Part shown: one piece after another, positions 12,980 through 61,001 of the stretch
Layout: each line of letters opens with the position of its first letter
Numbering within the stretch: position 1 is the stretch's first letter
Virus record (IMG/VR): IMGVR_UViG_3300024344_000001
Strand: one strand, 5' to 3'
Origin: a virus
Lineage: Duplodnaviria > Heunggongvirae > Uroviricota > Caudoviricetes
Length of the DNA stretch: 64,000 bases
Notes under the pieces: generated by a model
Database searches by the model: none
What the model saw: only the letters and a program-made list of their open reading frames with translations
What the model was told of the DNA's origin: nothing
Position numbers and translations under genes: made by a program

Positions 12980-13329
12980 TAATCACCTTCCATTATGTAT
13001 TTACGTTTCTGGTCGGCATTCATTTTTGCGATTTTCTTATTGGTACCTTTATCGGCTTCCCACCACTCTTTTTTAGGTGGTGGATTAAGTTCCAATTCCC
13101 TGGCTTCTTTTTCTCTAATTCGACTCTTGTTCTTATTAAAGTTACGTTCAGCCAGTTGACCAATAGTGGTAGCATCCCCCTTTACAAAAGAGGTTAACCC
13201 ACCAAAAACTATTCTTTCTAAACTATTCTTTCCGCACTGCGGACACTTTCTCTTTACATTAGCCTTGATGGACTGCTGTATTTCGAAATTGTGTTCACAC
13301 TCGGAACACTCATACTCATAGAGAATCAA
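12979..13329 (-). CDS. FmdB-family zinc-ribbon protein
   Basis: YECSECEHNFE...CPQCGK zinc-ribbon pattern. Confidence 0.5.
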   Translation of the reverse strand: MILYEYECSECEHNFEIQQSIKANVKRKCPQCGKNSLERIVFGGLTSFVKGDATTIGQLAERNFNKNKSRIREKEARELELNPPPKKEWWEADKGTNKKIAKMNADQKRKYIMEGD

Positions 13330-14069
13330 TTACAATACTCCTTATATTTATTGTATTTTCTGTCCAGATAGATAGTAGAATCTTTGTATAAAAAATCAAG
13401 GATTCTTCTAACTTGAACATTACCACTTATAGGTAAGTGGTATGTATTCCTAGATGACCTTTGATATAACTTAACATTAATACCAAGTCTTTTCTGAATA
13501 GAAGTTAACATTTCTTTAGTTCCAATAATAGCCAGTCTAATATTGGATTTTTTCACATCAAATGTGATACATCCATCCCCATCAAAATATCCTCTAATGA
13601 AATGTTTATCAATCTCTGAGGGAATTTGTGGATATTTCAGTATCAAACTTTTCCTTGGCACACAGCCCAAGCTCATCAAATCTTGACAAAGCTTGTTAGA
13701 CACATGAGAGCTATGGCAAGATGAATTTTTGTCTAATTGACGAACCTCTAGCATCGAATTGACACATTTATGAAATTTCTCTAAATGTTTATAGTCTGAT
13801 TGCTTCAGATTTATATCTAATCTAAAAGAATCACCATAATATGAACCAACACTACCGTCAGCCATAATAAATCCAAGCCAGTATCCAGATTCTTCTGAAT
13901 CAATAGATTCAAAAAAGTTCTCATTTAGTATTGGTGGTTTTTTAACCCCCCATTTTCTCATTCTACTGTAGAGAGTATTTCTAGATACTCCCAATTTTTG
14001 GGCGATGTCTGTAATACTGACACCATCGGATAATTCTTGCTTGACCAGTTCTTGGTTTATTTCTTTCAT
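13326..14069 (-). CDS. LAGLIDADG homing endonuclease with N-terminal HTH
   Basis: Two LAGLIDADG motifs, YWLGFIMADGSV and GYFDGDGCI; HTH ITDIAQKLGVSRNTLYSRM. Start moved to the internal ATG at 14069, which has a GGAGG RBS. The annotated ATG at 14096 lies inside the -10 element of the 14088-14125 promoter. Confidence 0.65.
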   Translation of the reverse strand: MKEINQELVKQELSDGVSITDIAQKLGVSRNTLYSRMRKWGVKKPPILNENFFESIDSEESGYWLGFIMADGSVGSYYGDSFRLDINLKQSDYKHLEKFHKCVNSMLEVRQLDKNSSCHSSHVSNKLCQDLMSLGCVPRKSLILKYPQIPSEIDKHFIRGYFDGDGCITFDVKKSNIRLAIIGTKEMLTSIQKRLGINVKLYQRSSRNTYHLPISGNVQVRRILDFLYKDSTIYLDRKYNKYKEYCN

Positions 14070-14087
14070 TATTACACCTCCAGTAGT

Positions 14088-14125
14088 ATTATACACTGGA
14101 TCTGTATATGAATGCTCAATAAACT
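14088..14125 (-). promoter_or_regulatory. promoter-like (TTGAGC-N18-TGTATAAT) upstream of the LAGLIDADG gene
   Basis: rc ttgagcattcatatacagatccagtgtataatac. Confidence 0.45.
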
Positions 14126-16026: not shown

Positions 16027-17099
16027 TATAGTAATCCTCCAAGATCCATATCGTATAAATCGTTCTTACTAGCTCCCTTCTTGTAACTAGTAATCTCATG
16101 TTCTTGTGGGGCCACTTGAACGGCTCCACTGTTCATCCAGGCATCAGTCCAACCTAATGGATTTTTACCTACACTATCGTATGGTAGACCAATAGCCTTA
16201 CGGCGACTCATACACAACCAATCAATATAGTGGTGTAGTGCAGTCTCAGACAAACCAATTATACTACCGTCTTTGAATAGATACGAGGCCCACTCTTTTT
16301 CTTCGTGTGCCGCCGTCTCAAACATCTTAACTGCCATGTCCTGGCATTCATTTGCCGTTTCAATAAATCCTTCTTCCTTCACTCCGTGAAGAATCTTAAG
16401 GATCTCTTGTGTGTTGTATAGGTGAAGGGCTTCGTCTCGCTTAATCTGCTTAACAATATCGGCGTTGCCCACCATCTTCTTATTCTCTGCAAAAGCGAAG
16501 GCACATACGAAGCTTACATAAAATCTAATAGCCTCAAGTATGTTGATACTTACAATAGTCATATAGATTTGCTTCTTAACATCCTTCTTAGAACGCCCCT
16601 GAGCAATCTTATTCAATACATCGTATTCTTTTACGGCCACGTCAGCACGCCGCATGATCTCATTGTCAGTTAGAATGTTATGGAATACATCACTGGGGTC
16701 ATTGTACACATTCTGAATAATGTACGTATAGGCATATGAGTGAATCTGCTCAAACGCCGCCCATGTATTCAAGCAGGCTTCTACTTCGTTGTTACTAACA
16801 AACTTCTGTAGTACCGGAACGCCCCTACAAATCACAGAATCCATCATAGTCTGATATTTCAGATTACTGGTAAAGATGAATTTCTCATTAGGGGTCATGA
16901 TCGCATCATCTTTGAAGTCATTACGGTCCTTCTTCAACTCGATCTCTTCAGGAAACCATACAAACTCCCACTGCTTACGGAACAGGTCCGCAAACACAGG
17001 ATACTTAGGATCGTGGTACATCTGAATACCTAGACCTTCTCCCAGGAAGATAGGCTGTTTCTTTTGATCTACAAACTCTCTGTTTAGTAGTGTGTCCAT
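16026..17099 (-). CDS. nrdB: ribonucleotide reductase class Ia small subunit
   Basis: NrdB-like di-iron carboxylate ligand arrangement; downstream of nrdA. Confidence 0.9.
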   Translation of the reverse strand: MDTLLNREFVDQKKQPIFLGEGLGIQMYHDPKYPVFADLFRKQWEFVWFPEEIELKKDRNDFKDDAIMTPNEKFIFTSNLKYQTMMDSVICRGVPVLQKFVSNNEVEACLNTWAAFEQIHSYAYTYIIQNVYNDPSDVFHNILTDNEIMRRADVAVKEYDVLNKIAQGRSKKDVKKQIYMTIVSINILEAIRFYVSFVCAFAFAENKKMVGNADIVKQIKRDEALHLYNTQEILKILHGVKEEGFIETANECQDMAVKMFETAAHEEKEWASYLFKDGSIIGLSETALHHYIDWLCMSRRKAIGLPYDSVGKNPLGWTDAWMNSGAVQVAPQEHEITSYKKGASKNDLYDMDLGGLL

Positions 17100-17903
17100 T
17101 ACTTGATACCTCTCAGAATGTGGGCGATCATATCAACGGTCCACCCATTTCCAATCATTTTATAGCGTTGTGTGTTACTCACACCTTCAGTGTAGTTATC
17201 AGGGAGAGTCTGAAGTCTTTCGCATTCCAACGGCGTCAACATACGATACTCCAGATCCTCTTTGTCTCTATCAATCTTCTCCAGGAAGACCAACTGCCGT
17301 CTACTCTTCTCAAAGTATTGTTTCAGGTTACCGCCCTTAGCATAGTTTGCGTCTATGCAGTAGGACTTGTCTCTATCTACCACACCGCCCTGGATAATAT
17401 CCTTTAGTAGAACACCCTTATCTTCAGGGGGAGTGAATGGAATGTTAGTCCAGTACAATCTATTACGGAGTTGTGCTGAGACCAGGCTGCTGTTCATCTT
17501 TACGGGCTGTACGCCAAGTGCCTTAGAGATCACGTCCTGTGACTCCTGCTTCATGTTAACGTTCTCTAACAGGAAGTATTTTGGCTCACACTCGTCCAAC
17601 AGTCTCTTGAATTCAAAGAATAGTTTACTACGGGGATCATCAAAGTTCAGTTGTCTACCAGCGAATGAGAATCCCTGACATGGACTACCGCCCATAACTA
17701 GGTCATATCTAGAAAGGAAATCTCCCTTGATAGTAGTAATGTCCCCTATCTGAAGGGTTTCTGGGTAGTTTTTTTGAGCGATCTGTATCGCGTACTTATC
17801 AATCTCAGATGAATAATACACTTCTGTATCAATTCCCGCTCGCTCAAGAGCTACCTGCCCACATGATATTCCATCAAACGTACTTAATACGCTTAAACTC
17901 ATC
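17099..17903 (-). CDS. DNA (cytosine-5)-methyltransferase (Dcm-type)
   Basis: Motif I STFDGISCG, motif IV PCQGFS, ENV, QRYKMIGNGWTV; start moved to the ATG at 17903. Confidence 0.85.
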
Positions 17904-27662: not shown

Positions 27663-27867
27663 CTAAATCCCTTTCAATGGTTTCTTCCCAATCCTTATTA
27701 CGGCGATCCAATTCTTCAGCGATGATACGTAGCTCATATGAGCTAATACCGCCACCACCACATGGACCCCAATAGTAGAAACCATCATCCATCGGAAAGA
27801 TATCCTTTTCAGCGTGTTTGAGAATTCTTTCTCTCATATTCCACTCTGTCATAAGAATTCTCTCCAT
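27652..27867 (-). CDS. hypothetical protein
   Basis: ORF. Confidence 0.35.
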   Translation of the reverse strand: MERILMTEWNMRERILKHAEKDIFPMDDGFYYWGPCGGGGISSYELRIIAEELDRRNKDWEETIERDLGGS

Positions 27868-28373
27868 TCTTTAGGGGCGTTTGCAGGATGCTCGAAGTAA
27901 ACCGGCTTACCTGGCTGACTCCGAAGAGGCATTCCTGCCTGATCTGGAGTACGATTAGCTTTGGTATGGTTACAAGTCTTACATGCTGCTACCATGTTAT
28001 CCCATGTGTTAGCGTAACTCTTCTTCTTGAAGAAACTAACGGGCTTAACGTGGTCAATAGTCTTAGTGCTATTAGTCAACGGAGCCAGGCAGTATTGACA
28101 GGTCATTCCGTCCCTGTTGTAAATACTACTTCTACTTGGAGTAGACTTAGGGCTGATCTTCACATACTTTCTGTAGTGAAAAACCGCTGGCACTTCAAAC
28201 ATTTCATCTTCACTTTCAATTACCTTATCATAGTATTTTACTACTGTGATACGATCAGTTTTGAAAGAGAGTTTAATAATCTTCCGTAGACCAAACTGAA
28301 TGCCTAGCGGAGTGTAGTCAAGGTTTAGAACTAGTGCTCTCATCGTCTTGCCACTCTTTCCATTCAGTGTCAT
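27849..28373 (-). CDS. HNH endonuclease
   Basis: CQYCLAPL...IDHVKPVS...CKTCNHTKANR. Confidence 0.7.
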   Translation of the reverse strand: MTLNGKSGKTMRALVLNLDYTPLGIQFGLRKIIKLSFKTDRITVVKYYDKVIESEDEMFEVPAVFHYRKYVKISPKSTPSRSSIYNRDGMTCQYCLAPLTNSTKTIDHVKPVSFFKKKSYANTWDNMVAACKTCNHTKANRTPDQAGMPLRSQPGKPVYFEHPANAPKEWREFL

Positions 28374-31201: not shown

Positions 31202-32782
31202 TTACTCATTGCTCTCAGTGACTTCCTTTACCTTTACTTTTTGCTTTTGCATTTGCTGTAGCATACCAGCCATTACCGCTGGGTCAAGGCTTGCACCTTC
31301 GCCCATAACAAGCACTTCTGGTCCTACACCTTCAAGTTCAGGTAGGTTGTTAATAAGGTTGTCAAGAATATAGAATCCGATACCGCCGTAGGCAGAAATC
31401 TTCTCTCTAACAGCTTCCGCTTCACCCTTAGCTCTACGGGCTTCAGCCTGACCCTCATTCTCTTCAGCTTCAATCTTGATCTTAGATTCTGTAAGGCGAG
31501 CCTGTTCCTTAGCGGCAGTACGGGCCTCAACAGTATCCTTCTCTACTTCCGCAGCAAGCTTCTGTTCCTCAAAAGCTTTAATCTGCTGTTTAGCAAGTTC
31601 CTGGTCAGTCTGAGTGGTAAGTAGTTCCTTACCTTCAGGTGTGCTATCAAGTCCAATATCAGCGATACGAACAGCGATAACATCTACCTTAAACTCAGCA
31701 ATAGCTTCACGTAGTTGTTCAGTAGCCTCAGTTTCTACTGTAGAACGAGAATTCAGGTAATCTAGGGCACTGGTATGTTCAGCGTTATTTCTGAAGATAC
31801 TTCGTACTGCGGGTAGAATTACCTTTGTTTCCAAAGTATCAAACCCATCCTTATCTAGATCTACGTCTGGTTCACCAATTTCTGATACAAGGTGAGGGGC
31901 ATTATCCTGCCTTACGGTTACCTCAACCCTAATATCAACGGGAAACTTATAACCATCGACGGTCTTAACTCCAATGGAGTGGTCAACTGTAGGGCGGTCA
32001 CTAGCACCCAACTGGGATGTACTGGTATAAGAGTAAACTCTCTTAGTAGTATTTACCTTAATCGGGTAGTAAGCCTCAGTATTGATATAATGAGTACCTG
32101 GGCCATACGGTGTATCCCAAATACCTACCTGACCAACTGGAACTAACTTACTAGTCGATACCGCTTCACCTTCGGCCTTAGTGCCGTGGTGAGACTGAAT
32201 AACCACACACTCATTCTGCTTGATAATAAGTGCTGGTTTTACCTCAACGGTGAATAGGTTAGGATTGTATGCGACAGTTTTACCAGCGGGAATAACTGTA
32301 ATCTGTGGACCTGCAAAACCTTTTGCTCCAAAGGTAGCACCATCCAACATGTCTTCTACAGAATCCCATTCATCAGCATAAGCCTGACCACTAAGTGCCT
32401 TACCGTCCTTAGCAGTTACCAATCCCATACTACCAGCAGGAATAGGCATGTTTGGGTTTTGTGATAGTTCATACTGCCACGGCCATAGACCAAAGTTCCA
32501 ACCTGGTCCCAATGTCGCAGCTTGCGGACCACGTTCGCCGTTAAAGGCTACTACGTGACCGCCTTGTAGTGGAGACCCAAACTTTGTTGAGACAATTCCA
32601 CGAGAGTCACCATCCACATAAAGGGCGGTCTGCCAACCGGTAAGTACGATAAACAAACCCGTAAACAAAAAGAGACCAAATCTACCAGGGCCAAGAATCT
32701 GTTTTGTAATGGGTACGAATGGTAGAACCAACGTAACCAATGCTAGAAACATAAAAGCCGCAAAAAACACTGTTGACATCAA
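31202..32782 (-). CDS. SPFH/band-7 (flotillin/prohibitin-like) membrane protein with coiled-coil tail
   Basis: N-terminal TM segments; SPFH core; long Ala/Glu/Lys/Gln-rich heptad C-terminus. Confidence 0.65.
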   Translation of the reverse strand: MMSTVFFAAFMFLALVTLVLPFVPITKQILGPGRFGLFLFTGLFIVLTGWQTALYVDGDSRGIVSTKFGSPLQGGHVVAFNGERGPQAATLGPGWNFGLWPWQYELSQNPNMPIPAGSMGLVTAKDGKALSGQAYADEWDSVEDMLDGATFGAKGFAGPQITVIPAGKTVAYNPNLFTVEVKPALIIKQNECVVIQSHHGTKAEGEAVSTSKLVPVGQVGIWDTPYGPGTHYINTEAYYPIKVNTTKRVYSYTSTSQLGASDRPTVDHSIGVKTVDGYKFPVDIRVEVTVRQDNAPHLVSEIGEPDVDLDKDGFDTLETKVILPAVRSIFRNNAEHTSALDYLNSRSTVETEATEQLREAIAEFKVDVIAVRIADIGLDSTPEGKELLTTQTDQELAKQQIKAFEEQKLAAEVEKDTVEARTAAKEQARLTESKIKIEAEENEGQAEARRAKGEAEAVREKISAYGGIGFYILDNLINNLPELEGVGPEVLVMGEGASLDPAVMAGMLQQMQKQKVKVKEVTESNE

Positions 32783-32838
32783 AATTTTCCTTTCAGTCTA
32801 TCCTAGTAAAAGTGGGACCGAACATCGGCCCCACCTAT

Positions 32839-33951
32839 TCAACCCTTAATGTTGATAATTGGTTTAACGTGATGGGTAACGTCTACCAATTCCTTCTGTT
32901 GTTCCATGACAGCAAAAATATCCTTGTAGGCGAACGGCGATTCGTCCAGGGTATCCTTATCTACCTTAGCACGAACACCCTCCATAGTCTTCTTGAAATC
33001 CTGAACATCTAATTCTCTCTTAGCGGCCTTACGTCCTAGGACGCGACCAGCACCGTGAGAAGAAGAGTGCATGGATTCTTCGTTCCCTTTACCTACTACT
33101 ATGAACGAACCGTCTCTCATGTTACCAGGAATTACGCCTTTCATCCCTTTTTCAGCATGAGTGGCACCCTTACGGTGAATCCAGCGGCCATCTTTCAATT
33201 CCGCATGATTATGATTACGGTTGATAAACGAATTCGAATCTGAAGACACACCTCCCAATCTACGGTCTAATACCGCTACTACAGCTTCAATCATAGCTGC
33301 ACGGTTAGCCAAGGCATAAGTAAGAGCATAGTTTAGGTCCACGATGTAATCCTGACCCAACTGTGAGTCTACATCAAGAGCACCATCTAGCCCCTCACCC
33401 TTAGCGATTTTCATATACTCACCCGCAATACCATGACCTAGGCCACGAGATCCTGAGTGAATAACGATCCAAATTTTATCATGCTCGTCATAGCCGATTT
33501 CAATGAAGTGGTTTCCACCACCCAATGTACCTAACTGTCTACGGGCATTACGGCGACCGTACATTTCTTCAGCAATCGCCGTATGTGGAAGTTTTTCGTC
33601 TACCCACACCTTGTCTTCCTTATGAGTATTAAAACCAACTGGAATATCACGGTAGATGTTCTGAAATAGGTAGTCGGCTCTTGCTTCAACGTCAGTTCTA
33701 TCGGCGTCTGTGCATATGCTGCTCATCCCGCAGCCTATATCGAAACCAACCCAAGCGGGGTATATTACCTCTCTTGTTGCGAATACTGAGCCAATAGGTG
33801 CATCATATCCAGTATGGGCGTCAGGCATCATAGCCCCTTGCTCAACAAATGGAGAATCCATACAATTATCAAACTGCTCCATAGCGGAGTCTTCAACAAC
33901 TTCTGCAAATATCTTTGATGGTTTCATTTCTCTCTTCTCCCTCTTATTCAC
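32839..33951 (-). CDS. rtcB: RtcB RNA 3'-phosphate/5'-OH ligase
   Basis: Motifs MPDAHTGYD, NRNHNHAE, HSSSHGAGR. Confidence 0.85.
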   Translation of the reverse strand: MNKREKREMKPSKIFAEVVEDSAMEQFDNCMDSPFVEQGAMMPDAHTGYDAPIGSVFATREVIYPAWVGFDIGCGMSSICTDADRTDVEARADYLFQNIYRDIPVGFNTHKEDKVWVDEKLPHTAIAEEMYGRRNARRQLGTLGGGNHFIEIGYDEHDKIWIVIHSGSRGLGHGIAGEYMKIAKGEGLDGALDVDSQLGQDYIVDLNYALTYALANRAAMIEAVVAVLDRRLGGVSSDSNSFINRNHNHAELKDGRWIHRKGATHAEKGMKGVIPGNMRDGSFIVVGKGNEESMHSSSHGAGRVLGRKAAKRELDVQDFKKTMEGVRAKVDKDTLDESPFAYKDIFAVMEQQKELVDVTHHVKPIINIKG

Positions 33952-33957
33952 GACATG

Positions 33958-34152
33958 TTACCATTCACTGTAATCAGTTACATCTTCTTCTTCTTTACTA
34001 ATATTACAGCGAATTACAGTTACCGTTCCTAGTGTAGTGGGCGTGTAAATCCACGAGAACTGTCCACCACTAGCACCAGTATATTCACGGCGATGTTTGT
34101 TCATAAATGCCGTAATTCTTTCTTGTTCTTTATCAGTTCTTGACGGTCTCAT
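33958..34152 (-). CDS. hypothetical small protein
   Basis: ORF. Confidence 0.3.
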   Translation of the reverse strand: MRPSRTDKEQERITAFMNKHRREYTGASGGQFSWIYTPTTLGTVTVIRCNISKEEEDVTDYSEW

Positions 34153-34448
34153 AGATTCCTCTCACCTTCCCAGTCGTAGATACAGTCGTCATCAATATCA
34201 ACCAATTTGATACCGTAATGATCGGCTGCGGCAATTACTTCTTGCCTCAACTCTGCAATTTCTTCCTTGTCTGATCCATCGTACCAAAATGTACGCCATT
34301 CACTTTCCCACAACTGAGTGCCGCACCTATCTTTTACTGTTGCATAGATAGCAACATAGTATGCACCACAGCATTCAGGACCACATGACCATACATCTAA
34401 ATAGAGACGCTCAGCCCATTCTGAGATTGGTTGGTATTCTTCAGTCAT
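34149..34448 (-). CDS. hypothetical protein
   Basis: ORF. Confidence 0.4.
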   Translation of the reverse strand: MTEEYQPISEWAERLYLDVWSCGPECCGAYYVAIYATVKDRCGTQLWESEWRTFWYDGSDKEEIAELRQEVIAAADHYGIKLVDIDDDCIYDWEGERNL

Positions 34449-34506
34449 TTTTCCTTATTTCCCATGTAAACTGCATATGTGCCGCTGGTTCCCACCCAAA
34501 TGGAAT

Positions 34507-34531
34507 TGGAGACGACGGGATTCGAACCCGT
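34507..34531 (-). pseudogene. tRNA 3'-fragment (acceptor 3' strand + T-arm) with no matching 5' half
   Basis: ggagacg + acggg-attcgaa-cccgt; no complementary 5' acceptor found within 150 nt. Confidence 0.3.
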
Positions 34532-34847
34532 GTGTTGATTAGCAATCATAATAACTTCTACGTGTGTAGGTATGTGCCACATACCAGAGGATAGTCTTCG
34601 CCAGGCGGGTCTATCATACCTTGTCCCTCATGGGCACGGCGATTAAGTCGCTACTCTCGTCTGTTATCCGATATATTCTACGATTGGGTAAAAAGGCTCG
34701 CAGAGAAGCCCGCAGCTTACGCTGCCATTAGTACAGATGTTTTTGCATCTATTGTTCGATCTATTTTTTAACTGGCCCTTAGATCAACCAGTACACGCGA
34801 TCATTACTCTCTACTATCAGTCGATTCCAAAACGTCCCCGTTATTTT

Positions 34848-35219
34848 CTAATGATCCAAATCTTTCACTACCGAAGGTAGTTCTTCTATCCTCTTAGCTT
34901 TATCATCTATTACCAAGTCAAAATGCGGTTTCTCGTCTCCACACTTAAGGTTATGGAACTTACAACCCCACTCACTTAGTTGTTTTAAGGTGTGAGTCTT
35001 GTAGTCTTTCCCACTCACTGACCCACGGGCAGTCCAGTATGTGATATGCCATCCCTCGTCATACAGCTTATTGATCTTAGCTATGTTATCGAAGTGAGGC
35101 TCAGACAGGTCATAACGGCGTTCGCCGCTGTAGAAGCAGATAGTCTCGTCAATATCTACGAAAGCCCGTTTCTGCTGACCTTCTGGGGTTAGTCTGTTGG
35201 CTATATGAAAGTCGGTCAT
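34848..35219 (-). CDS. HAD-superfamily phosphatase (DxDxT)
   Basis: Motif I VDIDETICF. Confidence 0.5.
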   Translation of the reverse strand: MTDFHIANRLTPEGQQKRAFVDIDETICFYSGERRYDLSEPHFDNIAKINKLYDEGWHITYWTARGSVSGKDYKTHTLKQLSEWGCKFHNLKCGDEKPHFDLVIDDKAKRIEELPSVVKDLDH

Positions 35220-39800: not shown

Positions 39801-39873
39801 AGAAGACAATGGGACTCGAACCCATGACACACGAGGTTAGAACTCGCTGCTCTGCCAACTGAGCTATGTCTTC
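39801..39873 (-). tRNA. amber suppressor tRNA (anticodon CUA)
   Basis: Acceptor gaagaca/tgtcttc 7/7; T-arm atggg-actcgaa-cccat; D stem gctc/gagc; anticodon stem acgag/ctcgc; plus-strand loop gtTAGaa gives RNA loop UUCUAAC. Confidence 0.6.
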
Positions 39874-52997: not shown

Positions 52998-53035
52998 CAA
53001 GTTATTCCCAGCGATTAGGCCAGGTTTTTCTATAG

Positions 53036-53107
53036 TGACACCACGGGGAGTTGAACCCACGTCCTCCAGGTTGAAAGCCTAGTATTCTACCAGTAAAATA
53101 TGGTGCC
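53036..53107 (-). tRNA. tRNA-Glu (UUC)
   Basis: Acceptor gacacca/tggtgcc; anticodon stem ccagg/cctag, loop codon GAA. Confidence 0.55.
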
Positions 53108-53121
53108 ATGTTTTTTTTGAG

Positions 53122-53193
53122 AGGGACGGGTGAGACTCGAACTCACGCACTGTTGCTTAACGGGCAACTGCTCTGCCGCTGAGCTACCGACCC
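53122..53193 (-). tRNA. tRNA-Asn (GUU)-like, with C at position 33 by eye
   Basis: T-arm gtgag-actcgaa-ctcac perfect; anticodon stem gttgc/gcaac, loop ttaacgg. Confidence 0.45.
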
Positions 53194-53492
53194 TAACATT
53201 CGTCATCTTCAACTAATCTAAAATCAGCAGTATGACGCATTGTTTCTATTTGTTGAGTCTCCATGTTAATCAAAACACAGTGACCCACTTGGGGACTATG
53301 CTCGCACAGGAATGTGAATAGCAACGGCCTATCCGTATTAGTCCTACCGTAGCCAAGAGGACCGTAATATGTAATACGATTCACTTCAGATAGATTATCC
53401 CAATACTCAAGATTGAAATTATCTGGCTCAAAAACTACAGTATCACCCATTTTGAATGGACAAGTCATGTCAATCTTCCTTAAAAGATACAA
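53193..53492 (-). CDS. hypothetical protein
   Basis: ORF. Confidence 0.4.
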   Translation of the reverse strand: MYLLRKIDMTCPFKMGDTVVFEPDNFNLEYWDNLSEVNRITYYGPLGYGRTNTDRPLLFTFLCEHSPQVGHCVLINMETQQIETMRHTADFRLVEDDEC

Positions 53493-53730
53493 CTACCTTT
53501 TTAACTTCGGGCGGTCCTGGAATCCAATCATGAATATCAGCACCTTGACAGCCTTCACCGTCACCAATAACAAACTCAACATTTTGTAATTCTTCACCGA
53601 AATGACCAAATCCATGTTGCTTTGCAACCGCATCAGCAATGATACTTGTGATTTCTGCCATATCATACTCAAGAGTTGTAATCGTTTCGCTTTTAGGCAT
53701 GATTTCTTCCTTTCGTGAGTTATTATACAC
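53470..53730 (-). CDS. hypothetical acidic protein
   Basis: ORF directly downstream of the promoter at 53722-53750. Confidence 0.4.
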   Translation of the reverse strand: MYNNSRKEEIMPKSETITTLEYDMAEITSIIADAVAKQHGFGHFGEELQNVEFVIGDGEGCQGADIHDWIPGPPEVKKVVVSFKED

Positions 53731-53750
53731 GATCTCCCCCGAAATGTCAA
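53722..53750 (-). promoter_or_regulatory. sigma70 consensus promoter (TTGACA-N17-TGTATAAT) with -35 inside a 10-bp inverted repeat
   Basis: tcccccgaaa-TGTCAAGTGT-tttcggggga at 53731-53760 (TTGACA of the minus-strand -35 sits in the hairpin loop); -10 attata at 53722-53727. Confidence 0.7.
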
Positions 53751-53784
53751 GTGTTTTCGGGGGATTTTTCGCGATTTTCTGAAA

Positions 53785-55245
53785 TTAGTGCGTTCTTGAG
53801 AAACGAGAAGGATCAGCCAGTCCAGTGTCCAGTCTATCCGCATGGGTTACATACTCCCCACGGTCATCCTTACAGACTACAACGCCCCCATTATTAAGCA
53901 AACGACTCCCCTTTGCTTCATTACATGATTTGCATAACATTTGCAAATTATTGTACTCGGTACTACCGCCCAAACTATGAGGATGAATATGATCTCCCGC
54001 CATTTCATGGAAATCAAACGTTTGATTGCAAGATGGACAGATTTTATCTTGTTCGTGATACCTCATCTGCTTATCGTATTCAGAAAAGTATCTATGAGGA
54101 TCTTTTACTTCAAGAGAGACAGAACCACTAGCGTTAGGATGTGAAGTAATGAAGTCAAACAATATGGAATGTCTAATTCTTCTAAAGTTCTGACCATTAG
54201 CCGCATGGTGAGCATGACCGCTATAACGATAGAACTCATCTACAAATCCATGCTCTGTGATTTTATCCATCTGAGGCAGACTTTGAGTAAAGTAGACTAG
54301 GGCTTCAGAAAACTCTGTTGTATGAATTTCATAGCCTCTCTCATATAGATCCGCAATTAGACATAATATGCTTAAAAGGGCGTTCTTTTTCTTGAAATGT
54401 AAAGACCTAAGACCGCCACAGAGGGAGGCCACTTCTCTAAGAGTTTGAAAAATTCTATCAACCTTTTTGGCAATCTCATACCATTTAATTGTGGTGTCAT
54501 TAGCGTAGTTTTGGAAAAATGGCTCTAATTCATAATTGTTTGGATGATCGTGCTTAATCATAAAACTAATTAAGCAACCCAAAATCTTACCATCATCCTG
54601 TTGTCTAATTCCCTTTTTACCGACTGTAGACTCCGAGAAGATATCTGCATACTTACCATCTAAGGTAGTAAACGGCATAATTACTTCCTGCACCAAAGGT
54701 GATCTTCTAAATTGAGATCTTAGTAGTTCCTGTGGATTTACTTTGCAGCTAAGATTCAAGGACTGAAACAAATAGTCTTTTAGTTCGTCAATATCATCTT
54801 CACTTAAACCTGCTGTTTCATAAATAACAGTGCATAGTTCATAACGTCTAAACACATTTTTCTCGCTAGATGTGAGATCTTCCCATTTTTTACCATCAAG
54901 ATGACTATCAAACAAATACGGTATAGCCGCTTTGTTTTGCTTCAATCTAAGTTCATTATTTATGAACTTTTTTAGAGTCTCAGATCTTTGCTGACCATCA
55001 ATAGACTCATACCATACTTTTACTTCTACTCCATTAGCATCTTCTTCTGATCTTTCAAGCATATAGATTTTAGGAATATCTACTCCTAGATAGACAGAGT
55101 TTATGAAACTAACCTCATAGGCATATGACCACACAAAATCCCTTTGGTGTTTACCCCCTAACTGGATCTCTCCCTCATTTATTTGCCTAACAATATCACT
55201 AACAGACACAACCTTTGTCTTAGAATTCCATCTTTTTGTATTCAT
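53785..55245 (-). CDS. DUF262 (ParB/GmrS-like) + C-terminal HNH nuclease fusion (GmrSD/BrxU-type architecture)
   Basis: DUF262 motifs LGGKHQRDFVWSYAYEVSFINSVYLGVDIPKIYM and IDGQQRSETL; C-terminal HNH CPSCNQTFDFHEMAGDHIHPHSLGGSTEYNNLQMLCKSCN. Confidence 0.7.
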   Translation of the reverse strand: MNTKRWNSKTKVVSVSDIVRQINEGEIQLGGKHQRDFVWSYAYEVSFINSVYLGVDIPKIYMLERSEEDANGVEVKVWYESIDGQQRSETLKKFINNELRLKQNKAAIPYLFDSHLDGKKWEDLTSSEKNVFRRYELCTVIYETAGLSEDDIDELKDYLFQSLNLSCKVNPQELLRSQFRRSPLVQEVIMPFTTLDGKYADIFSESTVGKKGIRQQDDGKILGCLISFMIKHDHPNNYELEPFFQNYANDTTIKWYEIAKKVDRIFQTLREVASLCGGLRSLHFKKKNALLSILCLIADLYERGYEIHTTEFSEALVYFTQSLPQMDKITEHGFVDEFYRYSGHAHHAANGQNFRRIRHSILFDFITSHPNASGSVSLEVKDPHRYFSEYDKQMRYHEQDKICPSCNQTFDFHEMAGDHIHPHSLGGSTEYNNLQMLCKSCNEAKGSRLLNNGGVVVCKDDRGEYVTHADRLDTGLADPSRFSRTH

Positions 55246-55816
55246 TATACACCTTTACTATAGTAGGTTTTAGCCACTGATTCTTAGGAGAGATAATATC
55301 GGTCTCCGTTACCCGAATAAACAAACGGCGTTCTGATACATTACTTACGGAAGCACGATGTACCAGTCGCCCATAAGTAATAAAACGTGATGGTGGAATG
55401 ATAGCTACTTCCTGACCATTGCAGAAGTTGTTGAACTTCGTAAGGTATCCACTCTCAGGAATATCAACGACTAAGTCGTTAGCTAAAAACGAAGTCAAAC
55501 ACTTACCAAAACAGATAAGGTGGTTAACTTCTTCACGGCGATCATCGCATGGATGGTTTACGGAGTCAATATGCCAGTTAGGCAACGCCGGTACCACACT
55601 AGGCTCAAGATCATGAACTTTGATATCGATCACAACGTGCTTATGATTACCCACTAACGGGGCCTTATCTACCAATCCGCATATCTCTGGTGAGAAGTGC
55701 TTGCCCACAAAGCTGCGTGAAGCATACTTTACGGACTTCTCAGGGTAACCACTAGCAGGAAAATCCTGGAAGTTACCTATTGTGGCGTGATTAAAGCCCC
55801 TTAGTGTGTATTTCAT
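55220..55816 (-). CDS. putative 2OG-Fe(II) oxygenase-like protein (HxD...H...R), overlapping the DUF262-HNH gene
   Basis: NWHIDSVNH (HxD) ... RLVHRASVSNVSERR (distal His + Arg ~10 aa later); 26-nt overlap with the downstream gene. Confidence 0.35.
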   Translation of the reverse strand: MKYTLRGFNHATIGNFQDFPASGYPEKSVKYASRSFVGKHFSPEICGLVDKAPLVGNHKHVVIDIKVHDLEPSVVPALPNWHIDSVNHPCDDRREEVNHLICFGKCLTSFLANDLVVDIPESGYLTKFNNFCNGQEVAIIPPSRFITYGRLVHRASVSNVSERRLFIRVTETDIISPKNQWLKPTIVKVYNEYKKMEF

Positions 55817-56178
55817 TAGTTCATTTCCAGTTCAGTAACCTGGTGAAGAATAATTCCGTACTTATCGAAGAACTCTACACGTTCCTGTAGAGAGACCTTC
55901 TTAAAGTCAAAGTTAGAACCCCATTCCCACTCGCCGCCGAAGTATTTATCGATATCTTCAGCATCTGGTTGTTTCCAACCAAATACATCAGAGACCGTCA
56001 TATCGAATGAGCCAATGTCGTTACTAATGAATTCCCCTACTTTGGATTCATCACTGGTAACAAAACAGGCTGGCTCCCATCCTGACTCGTCATAGGTTTC
56101 GTCGTTGTACTGATAGTGACGACGATGCACTACATAGACTTTAGTACCCACATTCATACCAATCTTTCTGAATACCAT
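55816..56178 (-). CDS. small acidic protein (member of a tandem array)
   Basis: ORF; acidic; start/stop overlaps with neighbours. Confidence 0.4.
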   Translation of the reverse strand: MVFRKIGMNVGTKVYVVHRRHYQYNDETYDESGWEPACFVTSDESKVGEFISNDIGSFDMTVSDVFGWKQPDAEDIDKYFGGEWEWGSNFDFKKVSLQERVEFFDKYGIILHQVTELEMN

Positions 56179-56521
56179 TTTTAGTAATGATCAGACGAAA
56201 GTCTGTATCCCAGATAGCCTGCTCAATCACAGTAGGAATAGAGCGGAACAACTTAGAAATCTTGTTGTTGTTATTATTCCACTGTTTTCCATCATGAATT
56301 TCAAAGTCACCATTCGCAACCCAGTCATAATCTATACCAGAGGTATGCTCACAGGGATCGCCGTCATTAAAACCAGGGGTCCATCCGATATATGAATACG
56401 AATGATCCTCATGATCGTCAGCCAAAATCTCACGGACTTCAGCTTCAACCTTATCCTTAACTTCGTTCTTGGCTTTAGCAAAAGCTTCATTAAAGTCCGC
56501 TACAGCAGTTTCAACAGACAT
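56141..56521 (-). CDS. small acidic protein, paralog of 56531-56956
   Basis: Shared motif GFNDGDPCEH vs YFNDGDACEY. Confidence 0.4.
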   Translation of the reverse strand: MSVETAVADFNEAFAKAKNEVKDKVEAEVREILADDHEDHSYSYIGWTPGFNDGDPCEHTSGIDYDWVANGDFEIHDGKQWNNNNNKISKLFRSIPTVIEQAIWDTDFRLIITKNGIQKDWYECGY

Positions 56522-56530
56522 AATTACCCC

Positions 56531-56956
56531 CTAGTCGTGGTTGTGATATTCTTCAACGGTAAATCCATCTTTGGAAAGATAGAATTTTGTATGAGAACCG
56601 AAAGTGTCTTCCAACACATCTTCTGGAATAGAATAGATTAGTTCTTCAACCTTCTTGAACCAAGGCTTGTCATAGAAACTAACCCATTCGCCAGTCTCTT
56701 CATCTTCAGCCTCTTCAATAACATAGACACTGTATTCACAAGCATCGCCGTCATTGAAATAAGGGACGTAAGCATTAACCTCAACCGTAAGGTTAATATC
56801 TTCCTGTTCAAACAGTTCTTTAATGGCTGGACTTAGAAGCCTACTAACCTCTTCGCCCAGAATCTTCTTCTGCTTCTCATAAGCTTCGGTAATAGGACCG
56901 ATCTTATCCTTATATGTCTGTACTGCGTCATTGACACTCATTACCGTACTCCACAA
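56531..56956 (-). CDS. small acidic protein, paralog of 56141-56521
   Basis: Shared NDGD.CE motif. Confidence 0.4.
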   Translation of the reverse strand: MWSTVMSVNDAVQTYKDKIGPITEAYEKQKKILGEEVSRLLSPAIKELFEQEDINLTVEVNAYVPYFNDGDACEYSVYVIEEAEDEETGEWVSFYDKPWFKKVEELIYSIPEDVLEDTFGSHTKFYLSKDGFTVEEYHNHD

Positions 56957-57146
56957 TTCTAGCTAGACATTCTAGCTCAAAGGCTGACATACCCCACGGC
57001 ACGTCATAGGATTCAAACGTATCCGTTAGTTTAGGATCATCGTAACGATAGATGCACCCAATATAACGGTTATTCATAAACACTGATTCAATATGATTCC
57101 CCTGTTCGCGTACAGTGAACAGGTTAGGAACCGAAGAACAAATCAT
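56928..57146 (-). CDS. small protein
   Basis: ORF. Confidence 0.35.
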   Translation of the reverse strand: MICSSVPNLFTVREQGNHIESVFMNNRYIGCIYRYDDPKLTDTFESYDVPWGMSAFELECLARIVEYGNECQ

Positions 57147-58158: not shown

Positions 58159-58186
58159 ATTATACCACGCCGTCCGCCGTTGTCAA
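58159..58186 (-). promoter_or_regulatory. sigma70 consensus promoter (TTGACA-N16-TGGTATAAT)
   Basis: rc: cttgacaacggcggacggcgtggtataatcc. Confidence 0.7.
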
Positions 58187-59557: not shown

Positions 59558-60289
59558 CTAAACATCAAAAGTTAAGGGAGGATTGACCGTCACATAAACG
59601 ATCTTCTTCAGTCCTTGGTCATACTTGTGAATAGTGTTTGAGGCATTCACAAACATAGGACCGTTACCGCATTTGATACCATGATTAGTAACGCCCGTTC
59701 TATTGTGAATGTGACCAAAGATGTGAGCGGACAGATTATCTAACTGATCTACTCTCCACCTAAGAGAACCACAACCACACTGAACGTAACCACCATTCTT
59801 ATCTTCCTTATCAACAGAAATGTCAAGATAACCCTGCGGTGGACCGTGAGTAATCAAAACATTCGTATCATCAGGAATACCATTCCAGACATGACCGATT
59901 CTATGACGCTTCATATTCCACGCCCAACCACTTCCGTAATTAGGAGTGTACGGCGAGCCAAAGAATCTAACCCCATCAATCATAATGGGGCGGTTAATCA
60001 AAATCTCAAGGTTGTACCACTCGTCATCATCCCATCTGATTAGACCAGCACACATAGACGTATCATGGTTACCAGGGACAAAGATTTTGTGTTCCCAGTT
60101 AGGAATAGCACTAAACCAATTCAGAAAGTCAATCAGTTCCTTTTCATTTAGGATAGGATTCTTTTGATTAGCACCATCACCCGCATGAACGAGAACTTCG
60201 CCGCCTGTTTTCAAAATATCTGTGAGATCGTCGTGTCTGCCGTGTGTATCACTAATAGCCGTGATCTTCATTGGACTGTTGTAAATCAT
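59558..60289 (-). CDS. calcineurin-like metallophosphoesterase (lambda PPase/ApaH-like)
   Basis: Motifs ISDTHG, GDG, GNHD, THGPP. Confidence 0.7.
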   Translation of the reverse strand: MIYNSPMKITAISDTHGRHDDLTDILKTGGEVLVHAGDGANQKNPILNEKELIDFLNWFSAIPNWEHKIFVPGNHDTSMCAGLIRWDDDEWYNLEILINRPIMIDGVRFFGSPYTPNYGSGWAWNMKRHRIGHVWNGIPDDTNVLITHGPPQGYLDISVDKEDKNGGYVQCGCGSLRWRVDQLDNLSAHIFGHIHNRTGVTNHGIKCGNGPMFVNASNTIHKYDQGLKKIVYVTVNPPLTFDV

Positions 60290-61001
60290 AATCCACTATC
60301 ACAATTTCTTTGGACGAATACTGAATGAGATATGTCCCACTCTCTACCCAATCCCCGCAGTTGTAATAGTCTATACCATTTACCCTTTTCTTCTCTGCAA
60401 TGTGCGTATGTCCGCATACGATGGTACCGCAATTTAGCCTCTTAGCGGTTGATGCGGCGTTCTCATAAAATCCGTTCAAATGACTGAATATCTTCTTACC
60501 AGTCTGTTTAATCAATTTAGATGGGGCGAAGGGATCGCGTATCACCTTAGACAGAGGGAACCTTAACCAGCGGTTCATTCTCTGAATCATGTTATACGCG
60601 AAGTCACCCAAATGGTAGATGATTCTCTGTTCTTCGGACAGATTATCAAAAGAATCGCCGTGAATAAAGAGAGTGTCATCTGCAACGTAGTGATTCATGA
60701 TCTCAATACCAAAGGCTTTATGCCCGTCAAATATCTTCAGGTATTCGTCATGATTACCAGGAATGTATATTACCCTGGTTGTTTTTGCAATATCAAGTAT
60801 GGTTTCTATTAGCTCAGAATACTTCTCGCCGTCCCACTTGATCTTATACTTCATTCTCCAGAAGTCTAGAATATCCCCGCATAGAATCAGTTCCCTACAC
60901 TTGTACGTGTTTAGTACATCGAGTAAACCTTTGATTCTAGTGTATCCACCCCCTAGATGTATGTCAGAGATACAAAGTCTCTTGACTGGGATTTTATACA
61001 T
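60252..61001 (-). CDS. LpxH-like metallophosphoesterase (UDP-2,3-diacylglucosamine hydrolase family)
   Basis: CISDIHLG, ILCGDILDFW, IPGNHDE, FIHGDSF, CGHTH - these match the LpxH motif order. Confidence 0.65.
   Translation of the reverse strand: MYKIPVKRLCISDIHLGGGYTRIKGLLDVLNTYKCRELILCGDILDFWRMKYKIKWDGEKYSELIETILDIAKTTRVIYIPGNHDEYLKIFDGHKAFGIEIMNHYVADDTLFIHGDSFDNLSEEQRIIYHLGDFAYNMIQRMNRWLRFPLSKVIRDPFAPSKLIKQTGKKIFSHLNGFYENAASTAKRLNCGTIVCGHTHIAEKKRVNGIDYYNCGDWVESGTYLIQYSSKEIVIVDYDLQQSNEDHGY

What the first reader, a model, noticed from the sequence alone, without database searches (positions are those of the whole stretch)
53785..55816. Operon pairing a DUF262-HNH (GmrSD/BrxU-like) nuclease with a putative 2OG-Fe(II) oxygenase
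The 486-aa protein has an unambiguous DUF262 N-terminus (..LGGKHQRDFVWSY..DIPKIYM.., DGQQR) fused to a CxxC...H...H...N...CxxC HNH domain. That is the architecture of modification-dependent type IV restriction enzymes, which are normally host defences, yet here it is carried by a lytic phage. The upstream gene overlaps it by 26 nt and carries an HxD...H...R signature compatible with a 2OG-Fe(II) dioxygenase. One reading is an offensive or exclusion module: a nuclease that attacks modified DNA of competitors or of the host. Another is a nucleic-acid modification plus cleavage pair, with the oxygenase creating or erasing the mark. The phage also encodes a C5-MTase, a GT4 glycosyltransferase and a second small oxygenase elsewhere. 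I do not know of a described phage system with this gene pairing.
Basis: partly seen in the sequence, partly recalled or inferred. Interest (0 to 1): 0.78.

Follow-up and report, generated by a model that had tools for sequence, protein, structure and literature searches.

The report
Phage nuclease and oxygenase, unlinked neighbours
Both genes are real and were read correctly: a GmrSD-like DNA-cutting enzyme and an iron/2-oxoglutarate oxygenase. They sit together only in this one phage lineage, so they are best seen as two separate accessory genes, not a new two-gene system.

Summary
On the minus strand, a 198-aa ORF (A, 55220-55816) overlaps a 486-aa ORF (B, 53785-55245) by 26 nt.

- **B:** DUF262/GmrSD_N plus a Cas9/McrA-type HNH domain, with all catalytic motifs intact.

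The "module" interpretation fails.

- **A's family:** it is a large, uncharacterised phage family (phrog_1843, about 1,000 clusters at 50% identity). None of 60 viral loci has a DUF262 gene nearby, and neither do two complete phage genomes.
- **B's relatives:** none of 156 loci carrying them has an A-family gene.
- **Closest relative of A (81% aa):** homology stops exactly at A's stop codon and a different gene follows. The 26-nt overlap comes from loss of that stop codon.

B-like genes instead recur beside C5-cytosine methyltransferases, including in a related 157-kb phage, and near tRNA genes. A is not TET/JBP-like, so the published ParB-dependent phage dioxygenase pairing does not apply.

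Verdict: two independent accessory genes, of modest interest.

The parts
55220..55816 (-). Gene A: 198-aa Fe(II)/2-oxoglutarate oxygenase-fold protein. It is a divergent, shortened member of the uncharacterised phage family phrog_1843.
55325..55573 (-). Predicted metal and 2OG centre of A: H82 (55571-55573), D84 (55565-55567), H153 (55358-55360), R164 (55325-55327).
   Evidence: Invariant in a 40-sequence family alignment. H153 and R164 lie on consecutive predicted beta-strands (152-155 and 162-172), 11 residues apart. The assignment to jelly-roll strands and to metal/2OG binding is inferred from established knowledge of 2OG oxygenases.
53785..55245 (-). Gene B: 486-aa DUF262(ParB/Srx-fold NTPase)-helical middle-HNH nuclease, with a GmrSD-like architecture.
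   Evidence: Pfam. PADLOC NsnA 7e-23 over aa 5-249 and HNH-type REase_II 4e-14. phrog_2598 and phrog_1583.
54709..55152 (-). DUF262/GmrSD_N domain of B (aa 32-179), with motifs QRxxxW, DGQQR and FxxxN.
   Evidence: Motif definitions are from PMC12065111.
53899..54039 (-). HNH domain of B (aa 403-449): CxxC...D418-H419...N433...CxxC-N442.
   Evidence: Pfam HNH and HNH_5. A profile search hits PDB 4h9d, Cas9 HNH domains and EcoKMcrA 6ghc (E 8e-7).
55220..55245 (-). 26-nt A/B overlap. It is the junction where homology with the relative L155 ends.
   Evidence: blastn places L155:15-849 on window 56082-55235 at 73% identity. In L155, A ends ...KPTIVKV-TAA and an unrelated gene follows. In the window the TAA is lost, which gives an 11-codon extension.
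53722..53763 (-). Element just after B's stop codon: a 9-bp GC-rich hairpin (53755-53763 / 53736-53744) whose loop holds the -35 box of a perfect TTGACA-17-TATAAT site (53750-53722). It is a likely unit boundary and the start of the next unit, which leads into the tRNA array.
   Evidence: Promoter scan, 12/12 match. Sequence read directly. Function is inferred.
58159..58186 (-). Upstream perfect sigma-70 consensus site and candidate start of the roughly 4.4-kb gene string that ends with A and B.
   Evidence: a consensus match only.
17099..17902 (-). C5-cytosine DNA methyltransferase of the same phage, placed between the RNR subunits. It is the more plausible functional partner of B, if B has one.
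   Evidence: PF00145 on the called gene. B-like genes sit directly beside C5-MTases in a related phage (L069) and in the L074/076/081/112 clade.
53035..53193 (-). tRNA-Asn and tRNA-Glu, the first members (in transcription order) of the array of 29 tRNAs plus a tmRNA that starts about 600 nt downstream of B.
   Evidence: ARAGORN.

Best explanation
A and B are two independent accessory genes that became neighbours in this one phage lineage. They are not a dedicated two-gene system.

**B.** B is a stand-alone GmrSD-like enzyme. Its ParB-fold DUF262 NTPase/sensor domain and helical middle region control a Cas9/McrA-type HNH DNA endonuclease (inferred from family knowledge). It most likely tells DNA apart by modification state and cuts foreign DNA. 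That DNA could be modified DNA of co-infecting phages, or the unmethylated host or competitor DNA while the phage's own C5-methyltransferase protects the phage genome. The direction of discrimination is unresolved.

B arrived as a replaceable cassette in the variable region bordering the tRNA array. The 26-nt overlap is a by-product of that junction.

**A.** A is a functional Fe(II)/2-oxoglutarate oxygenase under purifying selection. It belongs to a large phage-specific family that works without a conserved partner. Its substrate is unknown. It is not a TET/JBP-type DNA 5-methylpyrimidine dioxygenase.
For: **Shown**
- Domain content and intact motifs of B.
- 2OG-oxygenase fold and invariant HxD/H/R in A.
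- The A family has 628 proteins and 1,049 clusters at 50% identity, nearly all stand-alone proteins of 200-235 aa. It occurs in 101 cultured phages, none of them among the organisms of the 11 phage records matching B.
- 0 of 60 IMG/VR A-loci (±8 kb) contain a B or DUF262 relative. This held with a single-sequence search and with a 121-sequence DUF262 profile, whose positive control on B scored 3.5e-42.
- The complete genomes of POP18 (155 kb) and Bongo (80 kb) have an A-family gene but no DUF262 gene and no C5-MTase.
- 0 of 156 loci with B or DUF262 relatives contain an A-family ORF at E<=1.
- No neighbour family is shared by more than 3 of 12 A-family lineages.
- The closest A homologue (81% aa; its upstream gene is also homologous) is followed by a different gene, and nucleotide homology stops at window position 55235.
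- B has lower GC than A and the window: 0.374 against 0.424 and 0.418, with GC3 0.32 against 0.42.
- dN/dS for A is 0.09.
- The closest full-length B relatives lie beside tRNA genes (L008) or beside a C5-MTase in a related 157-kb phage that shares other genes with the window (L069).
- 32 of 156 DUF262 loci carry a C5-MTase within 6 kb.

**Inferred**
- NTP-regulated, modification-sensing DNA cleavage by B, from GmrSD, BrxU and SspE biochemistry (PMC10952713, PMC12065111).
Against: - No activity was measured for either protein.
- The synteny break rests on one 908-bp contig with only 59 nt beyond the junction.
- The IMG/VR scan for A relatives used patterns from canonical family members, and the window's A is a divergent subclade. 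A closer A+B pair elsewhere could have been missed, although a scan with A itself found nothing.
- The two genes are co-directional and overlapping and lie in one putative transcription unit, so co-expression is likely. Lineage-specific cooperation cannot be excluded.
- A precedent now exists for a ParB-fold protein activating a phage 2OG dioxygenase (PMC13229309).
- Many C5-MTase associations of DUF262 relatives are ordinary defence-island neighbourhoods (type II R-M + FRG + DUF262), not proof of partnership.
Confidence: 0.75

Rival explanations
1. Functional oxygenase-nuclease module. A writes or erases an oxidised mark on DNA and B reads it and cleaves. Alternatively, B's ParB-fold DUF262 domain activates A on duplex DNA, as ParB does for ParB-dependent phage T-dioxygenases.
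For: The genes are co-directional and overlapping, and no terminator-like site was found between the two flanking consensus promoters. The same phage has a C5-MTase and a GT4-type glycosyltransferase. There is a published precedent for a 2OG dioxygenase plus a ParB-fold activator (PMC13229309).
Against: - The families do not co-occur anywhere else.
- Synteny breaks at the junction.
- A is not TET/JBP. There is no PF12851 hit for A or for 6 family members, even at E<=10.
- A-family phages lack a C5-MTase.
- The C5-MTase and GT lie 36 and 29 kb away.
Confidence: 0.07
2. B is the restriction half of a phage-borne R-M-like pair with the phage's own C5-MTase. Methylated phage DNA is protected. Unmethylated host or competitor DNA is cut, which would serve host-genome degradation and nucleotide scavenging.
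For: - A full-length B homologue (about 30% aa identity) in a related 157-kb phage lies 13 nt downstream of a C5-MTase.
- An independent clade has B-like, then C5-MTase, then a small BsaWI-like ORF.
- L070 has a SAM-MTase-like ORF overlapping the start of its B-like gene.
- PADLOC scores the HNH part as a type II REase (E 4e-14).
- The window phage encodes a C5-MTase.
Against: - Characterised DUF262 nucleases (GmrSD, BrxU) are modification-dependent, not modification-blocked.
- In the window the MTase is 36 kb away.
- The MTases beside B-like genes are only 25-30% identical to the window's.
- C5-MTase proximity is also explained by defence-island clustering.
Confidence: 0.3
3. B is a selfish, homing-type HNH endonuclease cassette. 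It spreads into phage tRNA regions and gives the phage no benefit.
For: - It has a cassette-like presence/absence at a precise junction and lower GC.
- B-like genes lie next to tRNA genes in the window, L008, L069 and L094.
- The phage carries other mobile elements: a LAGLIDADG ORF, an intein in Pol III alpha, and a second free-standing HNH at the far end of the tRNA array.
Against: - Homing HNH enzymes are small and use NUMOD or AP2-type DNA-binding modules. No DUF262-NTPase homing enzyme is known to me.
- All three DUF262 NTPase motifs are conserved among relatives at 26-38% identity, which implies selection on the sensor domain.
- In L155 the slot holds a different gene, not an empty target site.
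- No flanking repeats were found.
Confidence: 0.1

Closest known systems
GmrSD / BrxU / SspE family (type IV-like DUF262-DUF1524 enzymes)
   Same: An N-terminal DUF262 ParB/Srx-fold domain with QRxxxW, DGxQR and FxxxN motifs, then a helical middle region, then a C-terminal His-Me-finger nuclease, all in one polypeptide (PMC4619093, PMC10952713, PMC12065111).
   Different: The nuclease is a canonical zinc-ribbon HNH (PF01844/PF14279), not DUF1524/GmrSD_C. No sequence-level hit to BrxU or SspE structures was found. It is carried by a large tRNA-rich phage and not by a bacterial defence island. Its specificity is untested.
EcoKMcrA and Cas9/IscB HNH domains
   Same: The HNH core of B aligns with McrA (6ghc, E 8e-7), 4h9d and Cas9/IscB HNH domains. 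From memory, not checked here, its D-H...N...N spacing matches the SpCas9 HNH domain.
   Different: The N-terminal sensor is DUF262. It is neither McrA's 5mC-binding domain nor an RNA-guided scaffold.
Menshen NsnA and Dazbog DUF262 sensors
   Same: The best PADLOC hit is NsnA (E 7e-23, aa 5-249). The DUF262-only relatives retrieved are FRG + DUF262 pairs that I take to be Dazbog-like, from memory of Dazbog's components.
   Different: Those sensors carry no nuclease domain and act with separate effectors. No NsnB/C-like or FRG gene was seen next to B in the contig's Pfam annotation.
ParB-dependent phage T-dioxygenases (5mYOX + ParB; O'Toole et al., PNAS 2026, PMC13229309)
   Same: A phage 2OG-Fe(II) dioxygenase gene next to a gene for a ParB-superfamily nucleotide-binding protein.
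   Different: A is not TET/JBP by sequence or by fold ranking. B's domain is DUF262, not a chromosome-segregation-type ParB, and it carries an HNH nuclease. The adjacency is not conserved, and no T-hypermodification genes were noted nearby.
Phage C5-MTase + TET (5mC dioxygenase) + glycosyltransferase hypermodification clusters (Burke et al. 2021, PMC8256090)
   Same: The genome encodes a C5-MTase, a GT4-type glycosyltransferase and a 2OG oxygenase.
   Different: The three genes are dispersed (17 kb, 25 kb and 55 kb), A is not TET-like, and other A-family phages lack a C5-MTase.
Small 2OG-Fe(II) oxygenases (PHD/P4H prolyl hydroxylases, AlkB/ALKBH, EctD, ColD)
   Different: Identity is only 9-17% and no subfamily stands out, so the substrate class (protein, nucleic acid or small molecule) cannot be assigned.
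DUF262 + Cas9-type HNH protein of the T4-like cyanophage Sf-FS3 (PMC12284385)
   Same: A DUF262 + HNH fusion annotated in a T4-like cyanophage.
   Different: It is an annotation-level report only. The sequence relationship to B was not tested here.

Membership tests
GmrSD family (DUF262-DUF1524 type IV restriction enzymes) | N-terminal DUF262/GmrSD_N domain with QRxxxW, DGxQR and FxxxN motifs | tested here: met
   PF03235 E 4.8e-10, 40.3 bits against a 33.2-bit cutoff. The motifs are invariant in alignment A3.
GmrSD family (DUF262-DUF1524 type IV restriction enzymes) | C-terminal DUF1524/GmrSD_C nuclease domain | tested here: not met
   PF07510 (DUF1524, accession as given in PMC4619093) is not among the Pfam hits. 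The C-terminus is PF01844/PF14279 HNH instead. It belongs to the same His-Me-finger superfamily but to a different family.
GmrSD family (DUF262-DUF1524 type IV restriction enzymes) | NTP-stimulated cleavage that depends on modified cytosine (5hmC, glc-5hmC or 5mC) | not testable with these tools
   This needs enzyme assays.
2OG-Fe(II) oxygenase superfamily | Double-stranded beta-helix (jelly-roll) fold | tested here: met
2OG-Fe(II) oxygenase superfamily | HxD/E...H facial triad plus a basic residue for the 2OG C5 carboxylate, conserved in homologues | tested here: met
   H82, D84, H153, R164 and R168 are invariant in 40 sequences. Spatial clustering in the model could not be inspected because no coordinates were available.
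2OG-Fe(II) oxygenase superfamily | Match to a curated sequence family (PF13640, PF03171, PF13532, PF12851 and others) | tested here: not met
   No Pfam or NCBIfam hit for A or for 6 to 8 other family members. The family is currently unmodelled.
TET/JBP 5-methylpyrimidine dioxygenases (5mYOX) | PF12851 match, or closest structural neighbours being TET2, NgTET1 or CcTet | tested here: not met
ParB-dependent 5mYOX system | Conserved co-localisation of the dioxygenase with a ParB homologue | tested here: not met
   0 of 60 A-loci and 2 whole genomes have a DUF262 gene. No neighbour family is shared by more than 3 of 12 lineages. ParBc-type profiles were not specifically searched.
Menshen (NsnABC) | NsnA-like DUF262 gene followed by NsnB ABC-ATPase and NsnC effector genes | tested here: not met
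   Downstream of B there are only 76-99-aa ORFs and then tRNAs, with no ATPase annotation.
Type II R-M system (MTase + HNH REase) | Adjacent cognate methyltransferase | tested here: not met
   The window's C5-MTase is 36 kb away. Adjacency is met in relatives L069 and L074/076/081/112.

The most novel reading that the evidence does not exclude
In this phage lineage alone, the DUF262 (ParB-fold) domain of B may have been recruited to work with oxygenase A, by analogy with ParB-activated phage T-dioxygenases. A would oxidise a base in DNA, and B's HNH would cut DNA that carries or lacks the mark. That would be a fused activator/reader-nuclease partnered with a non-TET oxygenase, a combination not described before.
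Probability: 0.05. Interest if true: 0.75.

Novelty: new member of a known kind. Interest (0 to 1): 0.27.

Why it matters
The proposed oxygenase-nuclease system is not supported, so it does not open a new class of phage DNA-modification or restriction module. Three smaller points remain useful.

1. **A GmrSD-like nuclease in a large tRNA-rich phage.** A phage with 29 tRNAs, a tmRNA, RtcB and Pol III alpha carries an intact GmrSD-like nuclease with a canonical HNH domain. Its relatives recur beside C5-methyltransferases and tRNA genes in phages. This is a tractable candidate for phage-versus-phage or phage-versus-host DNA discrimination.

2. **An unmodelled oxygenase family.** phrog_1843 is a very large phage-specific family of 2OG-Fe(II) oxygenases, with about 1,000 clusters at 50% identity. 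It occurs in mycobacteriophages, Gordonia phages, Bacillus phage G, and T4-like and Certrevirus phages. It has no Pfam model and no known substrate. A Pfam-style model and one biochemical characterisation would allow hundreds of phage genes now labelled hypothetical to be annotated as 2OG-Fe(II) oxygenases.

3. **A worked caution.** Overlapping, co-directional phage genes should not be read as functional pairs without checking conservation.

Tried and rejected
- **Phage database search.** Megablast of 53000-57000 against 50,697 phage records gave no match.
- **IMG/VR scans.** Scans with B, A, the 239-aa ORF and the 180-aa ORF as single queries found no close relatives.
- **Sequence searches for A.** PDB (phmmer and profile), Pfam and NCBIfam gave nothing meaningful. 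The only "hits" were pentapeptide-repeat noise and a ferredoxin at E 0.11.
- **Longer A-family proteins.** Members of 245-462 aa were scanned for informative fusions and none was found.
- **AF2 model of B.** A 3-sequence alignment gave pLDDT 39.9, which is unusable except for the HNH region.
- **tRNA/RtcB association.** I tested whether the A family is tied to RtcB and tRNA "translation-repair" genes. RtcB lies within 8 kb in 15 of 60 loci and large tRNA arrays in 20 of 60. These belong to only 2-3 actinophage lineages out of 12, so the link is lineage-specific synteny and not a general rule.
- **C5-MTase association.** I tested whether the link with DUF262 relatives means partnership. Many cases are type II R-M + FRG + DUF262 islands, that is, defence-island clustering.
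- **Other checks.** No repeats flank B. B's HNH is not a recent paralogue of the phage's other HNH gene, at 25% identity. Two exact-protein look-ups failed, probably because of different called starts.
Full report
**Observation.** The minus strand carries a 198-aa ORF (A, 55220-55816) and a 486-aa ORF (B, 53785-55245) that overlap by 26 nt.

B matches Pfam GmrSD_N/DUF262 (aa 32-179, E 4.8e-10) and HNH/HNH_5 (aa 403-449, about 1e-13). It also matches PHROG families 2598 and 1583, PADLOC NsnA (the Menshen DUF262 sensor, 7e-23) and an HNH-type REase model (4e-14).

The three DUF262 motifs (QRxxxW, DGQQR, FxxxN) and the HNH residues (CxxC, D418-H419, N433, CxxC-N442) are invariant among B and its two database relatives at 38% and 26% identity. 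A profile of these three sequences hits the Geobacter HNH 4h9d, Cas9 HNH domains and EcoKMcrA in the PDB.

**Gene A.** A has no Pfam, NCBIfam or PDB sequence match. It does belong to phrog_1843, of unknown function.

- **Size of the family.** tblastn finds the family in 101 cultured phages: cluster-M-type mycobacteriophages, Gordonia phages, Bacillus phage G, Cronobacter CR3-like phages, Yersinia phiR1-RT, Serratia, Erwinia and others. All but one are annotated hypothetical. A profile search finds 628 proteins, and an exhaustive HMM search finds 1,049 clusters at 50% identity.
- **Conserved residues.** In a 40-sequence alignment, D64, K66, H82, D84, H99, C106, H153, R164, R168 and E171 are invariant.
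- **Active-site geometry.** H153 and R164 lie on consecutive predicted strands 11 residues apart, the usual position of the distal His and the 2OG-binding Arg (this reading is inferred).
- **Divergence and constraint.** The window's A is a divergent, shortened member. It lacks the family's near-invariant WDWW motif and a loop. It is still under strong purifying selection: dN/dS is about 0.09 against an 81%-identical homologue, with dS near saturation.

No subfamily or substrate can be assigned.

**Is it a pair?** Four independent tests say no.

1. **From A's side.** In 60 IMG/VR loci carrying an A-family gene (12 lineages at 60% identity, ±8 kb), no ORF resembles B by phmmer. The single hit is a 156-aa ORF at E 1e-4, 3.5 kb away. 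None matches a DUF262 profile built from 121 relatives, whose positive control on B scored 3.5e-42. No neighbour family is shared by more than 3 of the 12 lineages. The complete genomes of Pectobacterium phage POP18 and Mycobacterium phage Bongo have an A-family gene but no DUF262 gene and no C5-methyltransferase.
2. **From B's side.** In 156 loci carrying B or DUF262 relatives, drawn from metagenomes, IMG/VR and 185,579 species genomes, no ORF matches the A-family HMM even at E<=1.
3. **The closest relative of A.** This is the 908-bp contig L155, at 81% aa identity and with a homologous upstream gene. It aligns to window 56082-55235 at 73% nucleotide identity, and homology then stops. In L155, A ends ...KPTIVKV-TAA and the next gene begins MVQINIIEEC..., which is not B and is not found anywhere in the window. 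In the window the TAA is lost, A gains 11 codons, and that extension is what creates the 26-nt overlap.
4. **The overlap itself.** A's ATG overlaps the stop of the upstream ORF (TAATG), and ORFs 56141-56521 and 60252-61001 overlap their downstream neighbours by 38 nt. A and B are the last genes of a roughly 4.4-kb co-directional string lying between two perfect TTGACA-N16/17-TATAAT sites at 58186-58159 and 53750-53722. The second site lies in the loop and 3' side of a 9-bp GC hairpin just after B's stop codon.

B is also compositionally different: GC 0.374 and GC3 0.32, against 0.424 and 0.42 for A and 0.418 for the window.

**What keeps company with B-like genes.** The nearest relative, P0273 (37% identity), directly follows a tRNA-Leu gene.

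A full-length relative (about 30% aa identity) sits in a 157-kb viral contig, L069. That contig shares several other genes with the window, for example 79% aa identity with window 34878-35213. There the B-like gene lies 13 nt downstream of a C5-cytosine methyltransferase and overlaps a 5-formyl-THF cyclo-ligase gene.

A separate clade (L074, L076, L081, L112) has B-like, then C5-MTase, then a small BsaWI-like ORF.

Overall, 32 of 156 DUF262 loci carry a C5-MTase within 6 kb. The two I annotated (L179, L209) are type II R-M (Eco29kI- or NotI-like) + FRG + DUF262 islands, and several others share the same spacing. That is defence-island clustering of what I take to be Dazbog-like pairs.

The window phage has its own C5-MTase between the RNR subunit genes (17099-17902). 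It also has a GT4-type glycosyltransferase, a dCMP deaminase and a dNMP kinase. If B has a partner, the methyltransferase is a better candidate than A.

**Comparison with known systems.**
- **GmrSD, BrxU and SspE.** B has their architecture, with a canonical HNH in place of DUF1524 (PMC4619093, PMC10952713, PMC12065111). A DUF262 + Cas9-type HNH protein has already been noted in a T4-like cyanophage (PMC12284385).
- **ParB-dependent 5mYOX/T-dioxygenase system.** This is the closest published dioxygenase + ParB-fold pairing (PMC13229309). A fails membership. It has no PF12851 hit, and no TET2, NgTET1 or CcTet entry among its structural neighbours, whereas genuine phage 5mYOXs hit those at 1e-8 to 1e-11.
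- **TET + C5-MTase + GT hypermodification clusters.** These (PMC8256090) are likewise not matched. The genes are dispersed, and the A-family phages examined lack a C5-MTase.

**Most likely mechanism.** B (inferred) is an NTP-gated DNA endonuclease whose DUF262 and helical domains sense DNA state and license HNH cleavage. It would be used against co-infecting modified phages, or against unmethylated host or competitor DNA with the phage MTase protecting self. I put these two directions at roughly equal odds. A (inferred) is a stand-alone Fe(II)/2OG oxygenase with an unknown substrate.

A's recurrent position in actinophages is near tRNA arrays, tmRNA, RtcB, RF-1-like, Pth and metallophosphoesterase genes. 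The window has the same tmRNA, RtcB and band-7 order as Bongo. Together these hint at a role in translation or RNA maintenance. The association is confined to a few lineages, so I do not commit to it.

**Verdict.** The sequence observation is confirmed. The functional-pair interpretation is not supported. The two genes are individually ordinary members or variants of known superfamilies, of modest interest.

Noticed in passing
window 28632-53193 (minus strand): An array of 29 tRNA genes plus a tmRNA (34507-34839, tag AKTSVLMAA). It includes a CTA-anticodon tRNA (an amber suppressor, labelled 'tRNA-Pyl' by ARAGORN) at 39801-39873. This may point to TAG recoding or suppression in this phage.
   Followed up: no
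window 31202-34839; L161 (Mycobacterium phage Bongo) 10934-18612: The order tmRNA/tRNA array, then RtcB, then band-7/SPFH protein is shared between this metagenomic phage and cluster M mycobacteriophage Bongo. Both also carry MazG, an A-family oxygenase and phosphoesterases. This could be a conserved 'translation maintenance' module spanning very distant phages.
   Followed up: partly
A family (phrog_1843): P0003-P0271, e.g. Cronobacter CR3 gp049, Yersinia phiR1-RT g088, Bongo gp121: A very large phage-specific family of 2OG-Fe(II) oxygenase-fold proteins (about 1,049 clusters at 50% identity). It has no Pfam or NCBIfam model and no known substrate. Invariant residues are D, K, HxD, H, C, H, R, R and E.
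   Followed up: partly
L069 4875-7990 (Ga0209091_10000022, 157-kb viral contig): In a phage related to the window phage, a C5-cytosine methyltransferase, a DUF262-HNH gene and a 5-formyl-THF cyclo-ligase gene are tightly packed or overlapping. This may be a DNA-modification and restriction cluster.
   Followed up: partly
L209 2277-6008; L179 1830-5984, and about 10 further loci: A recurrent bacterial arrangement: C5-MTase, a type II REase (Eco29kI- or NotI-like), an FRG-domain protein and a DUF262 protein. I read these as Dazbog-like pairs embedded next to type II R-M systems.
   Followed up: partly
window 13326-14096; L154 17758-19329; window 27849-28373: Other mobile or selfish elements in the same phage: a LAGLIDADG ORF, an intein-containing Pol III alpha finger-domain ORF (just beyond the low end of the window), and a free-standing 174-aa HNH gene at the far end of the tRNA array.
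   Followed up: no
window 56141-56521 and 56531-56956 (minus strand): Two adjacent small ORFs share an 'FNDGD.CE' motif. They look like tandem paralogues of unknown function just upstream of A.
   Followed up: no
L007 1521-1694: Downstream of the closest B relative (P0273) is an ORF that begins like a cupin (MEDYVSKPWGHY...QYHKGRTEFWYV). It is a different DSBH-type gene, unrelated to family A, sitting next to a DUF262-HNH gene.
   Followed up: no
window 53736-53763: A 9-bp GC-rich hairpin (CCCCCGAAA / TTTCGGGGG) encloses the -35 box of a perfect sigma-70 consensus promoter immediately after B. It could be a combined terminator/processing site and a promoter that drives the tRNA array.
   Followed up: no
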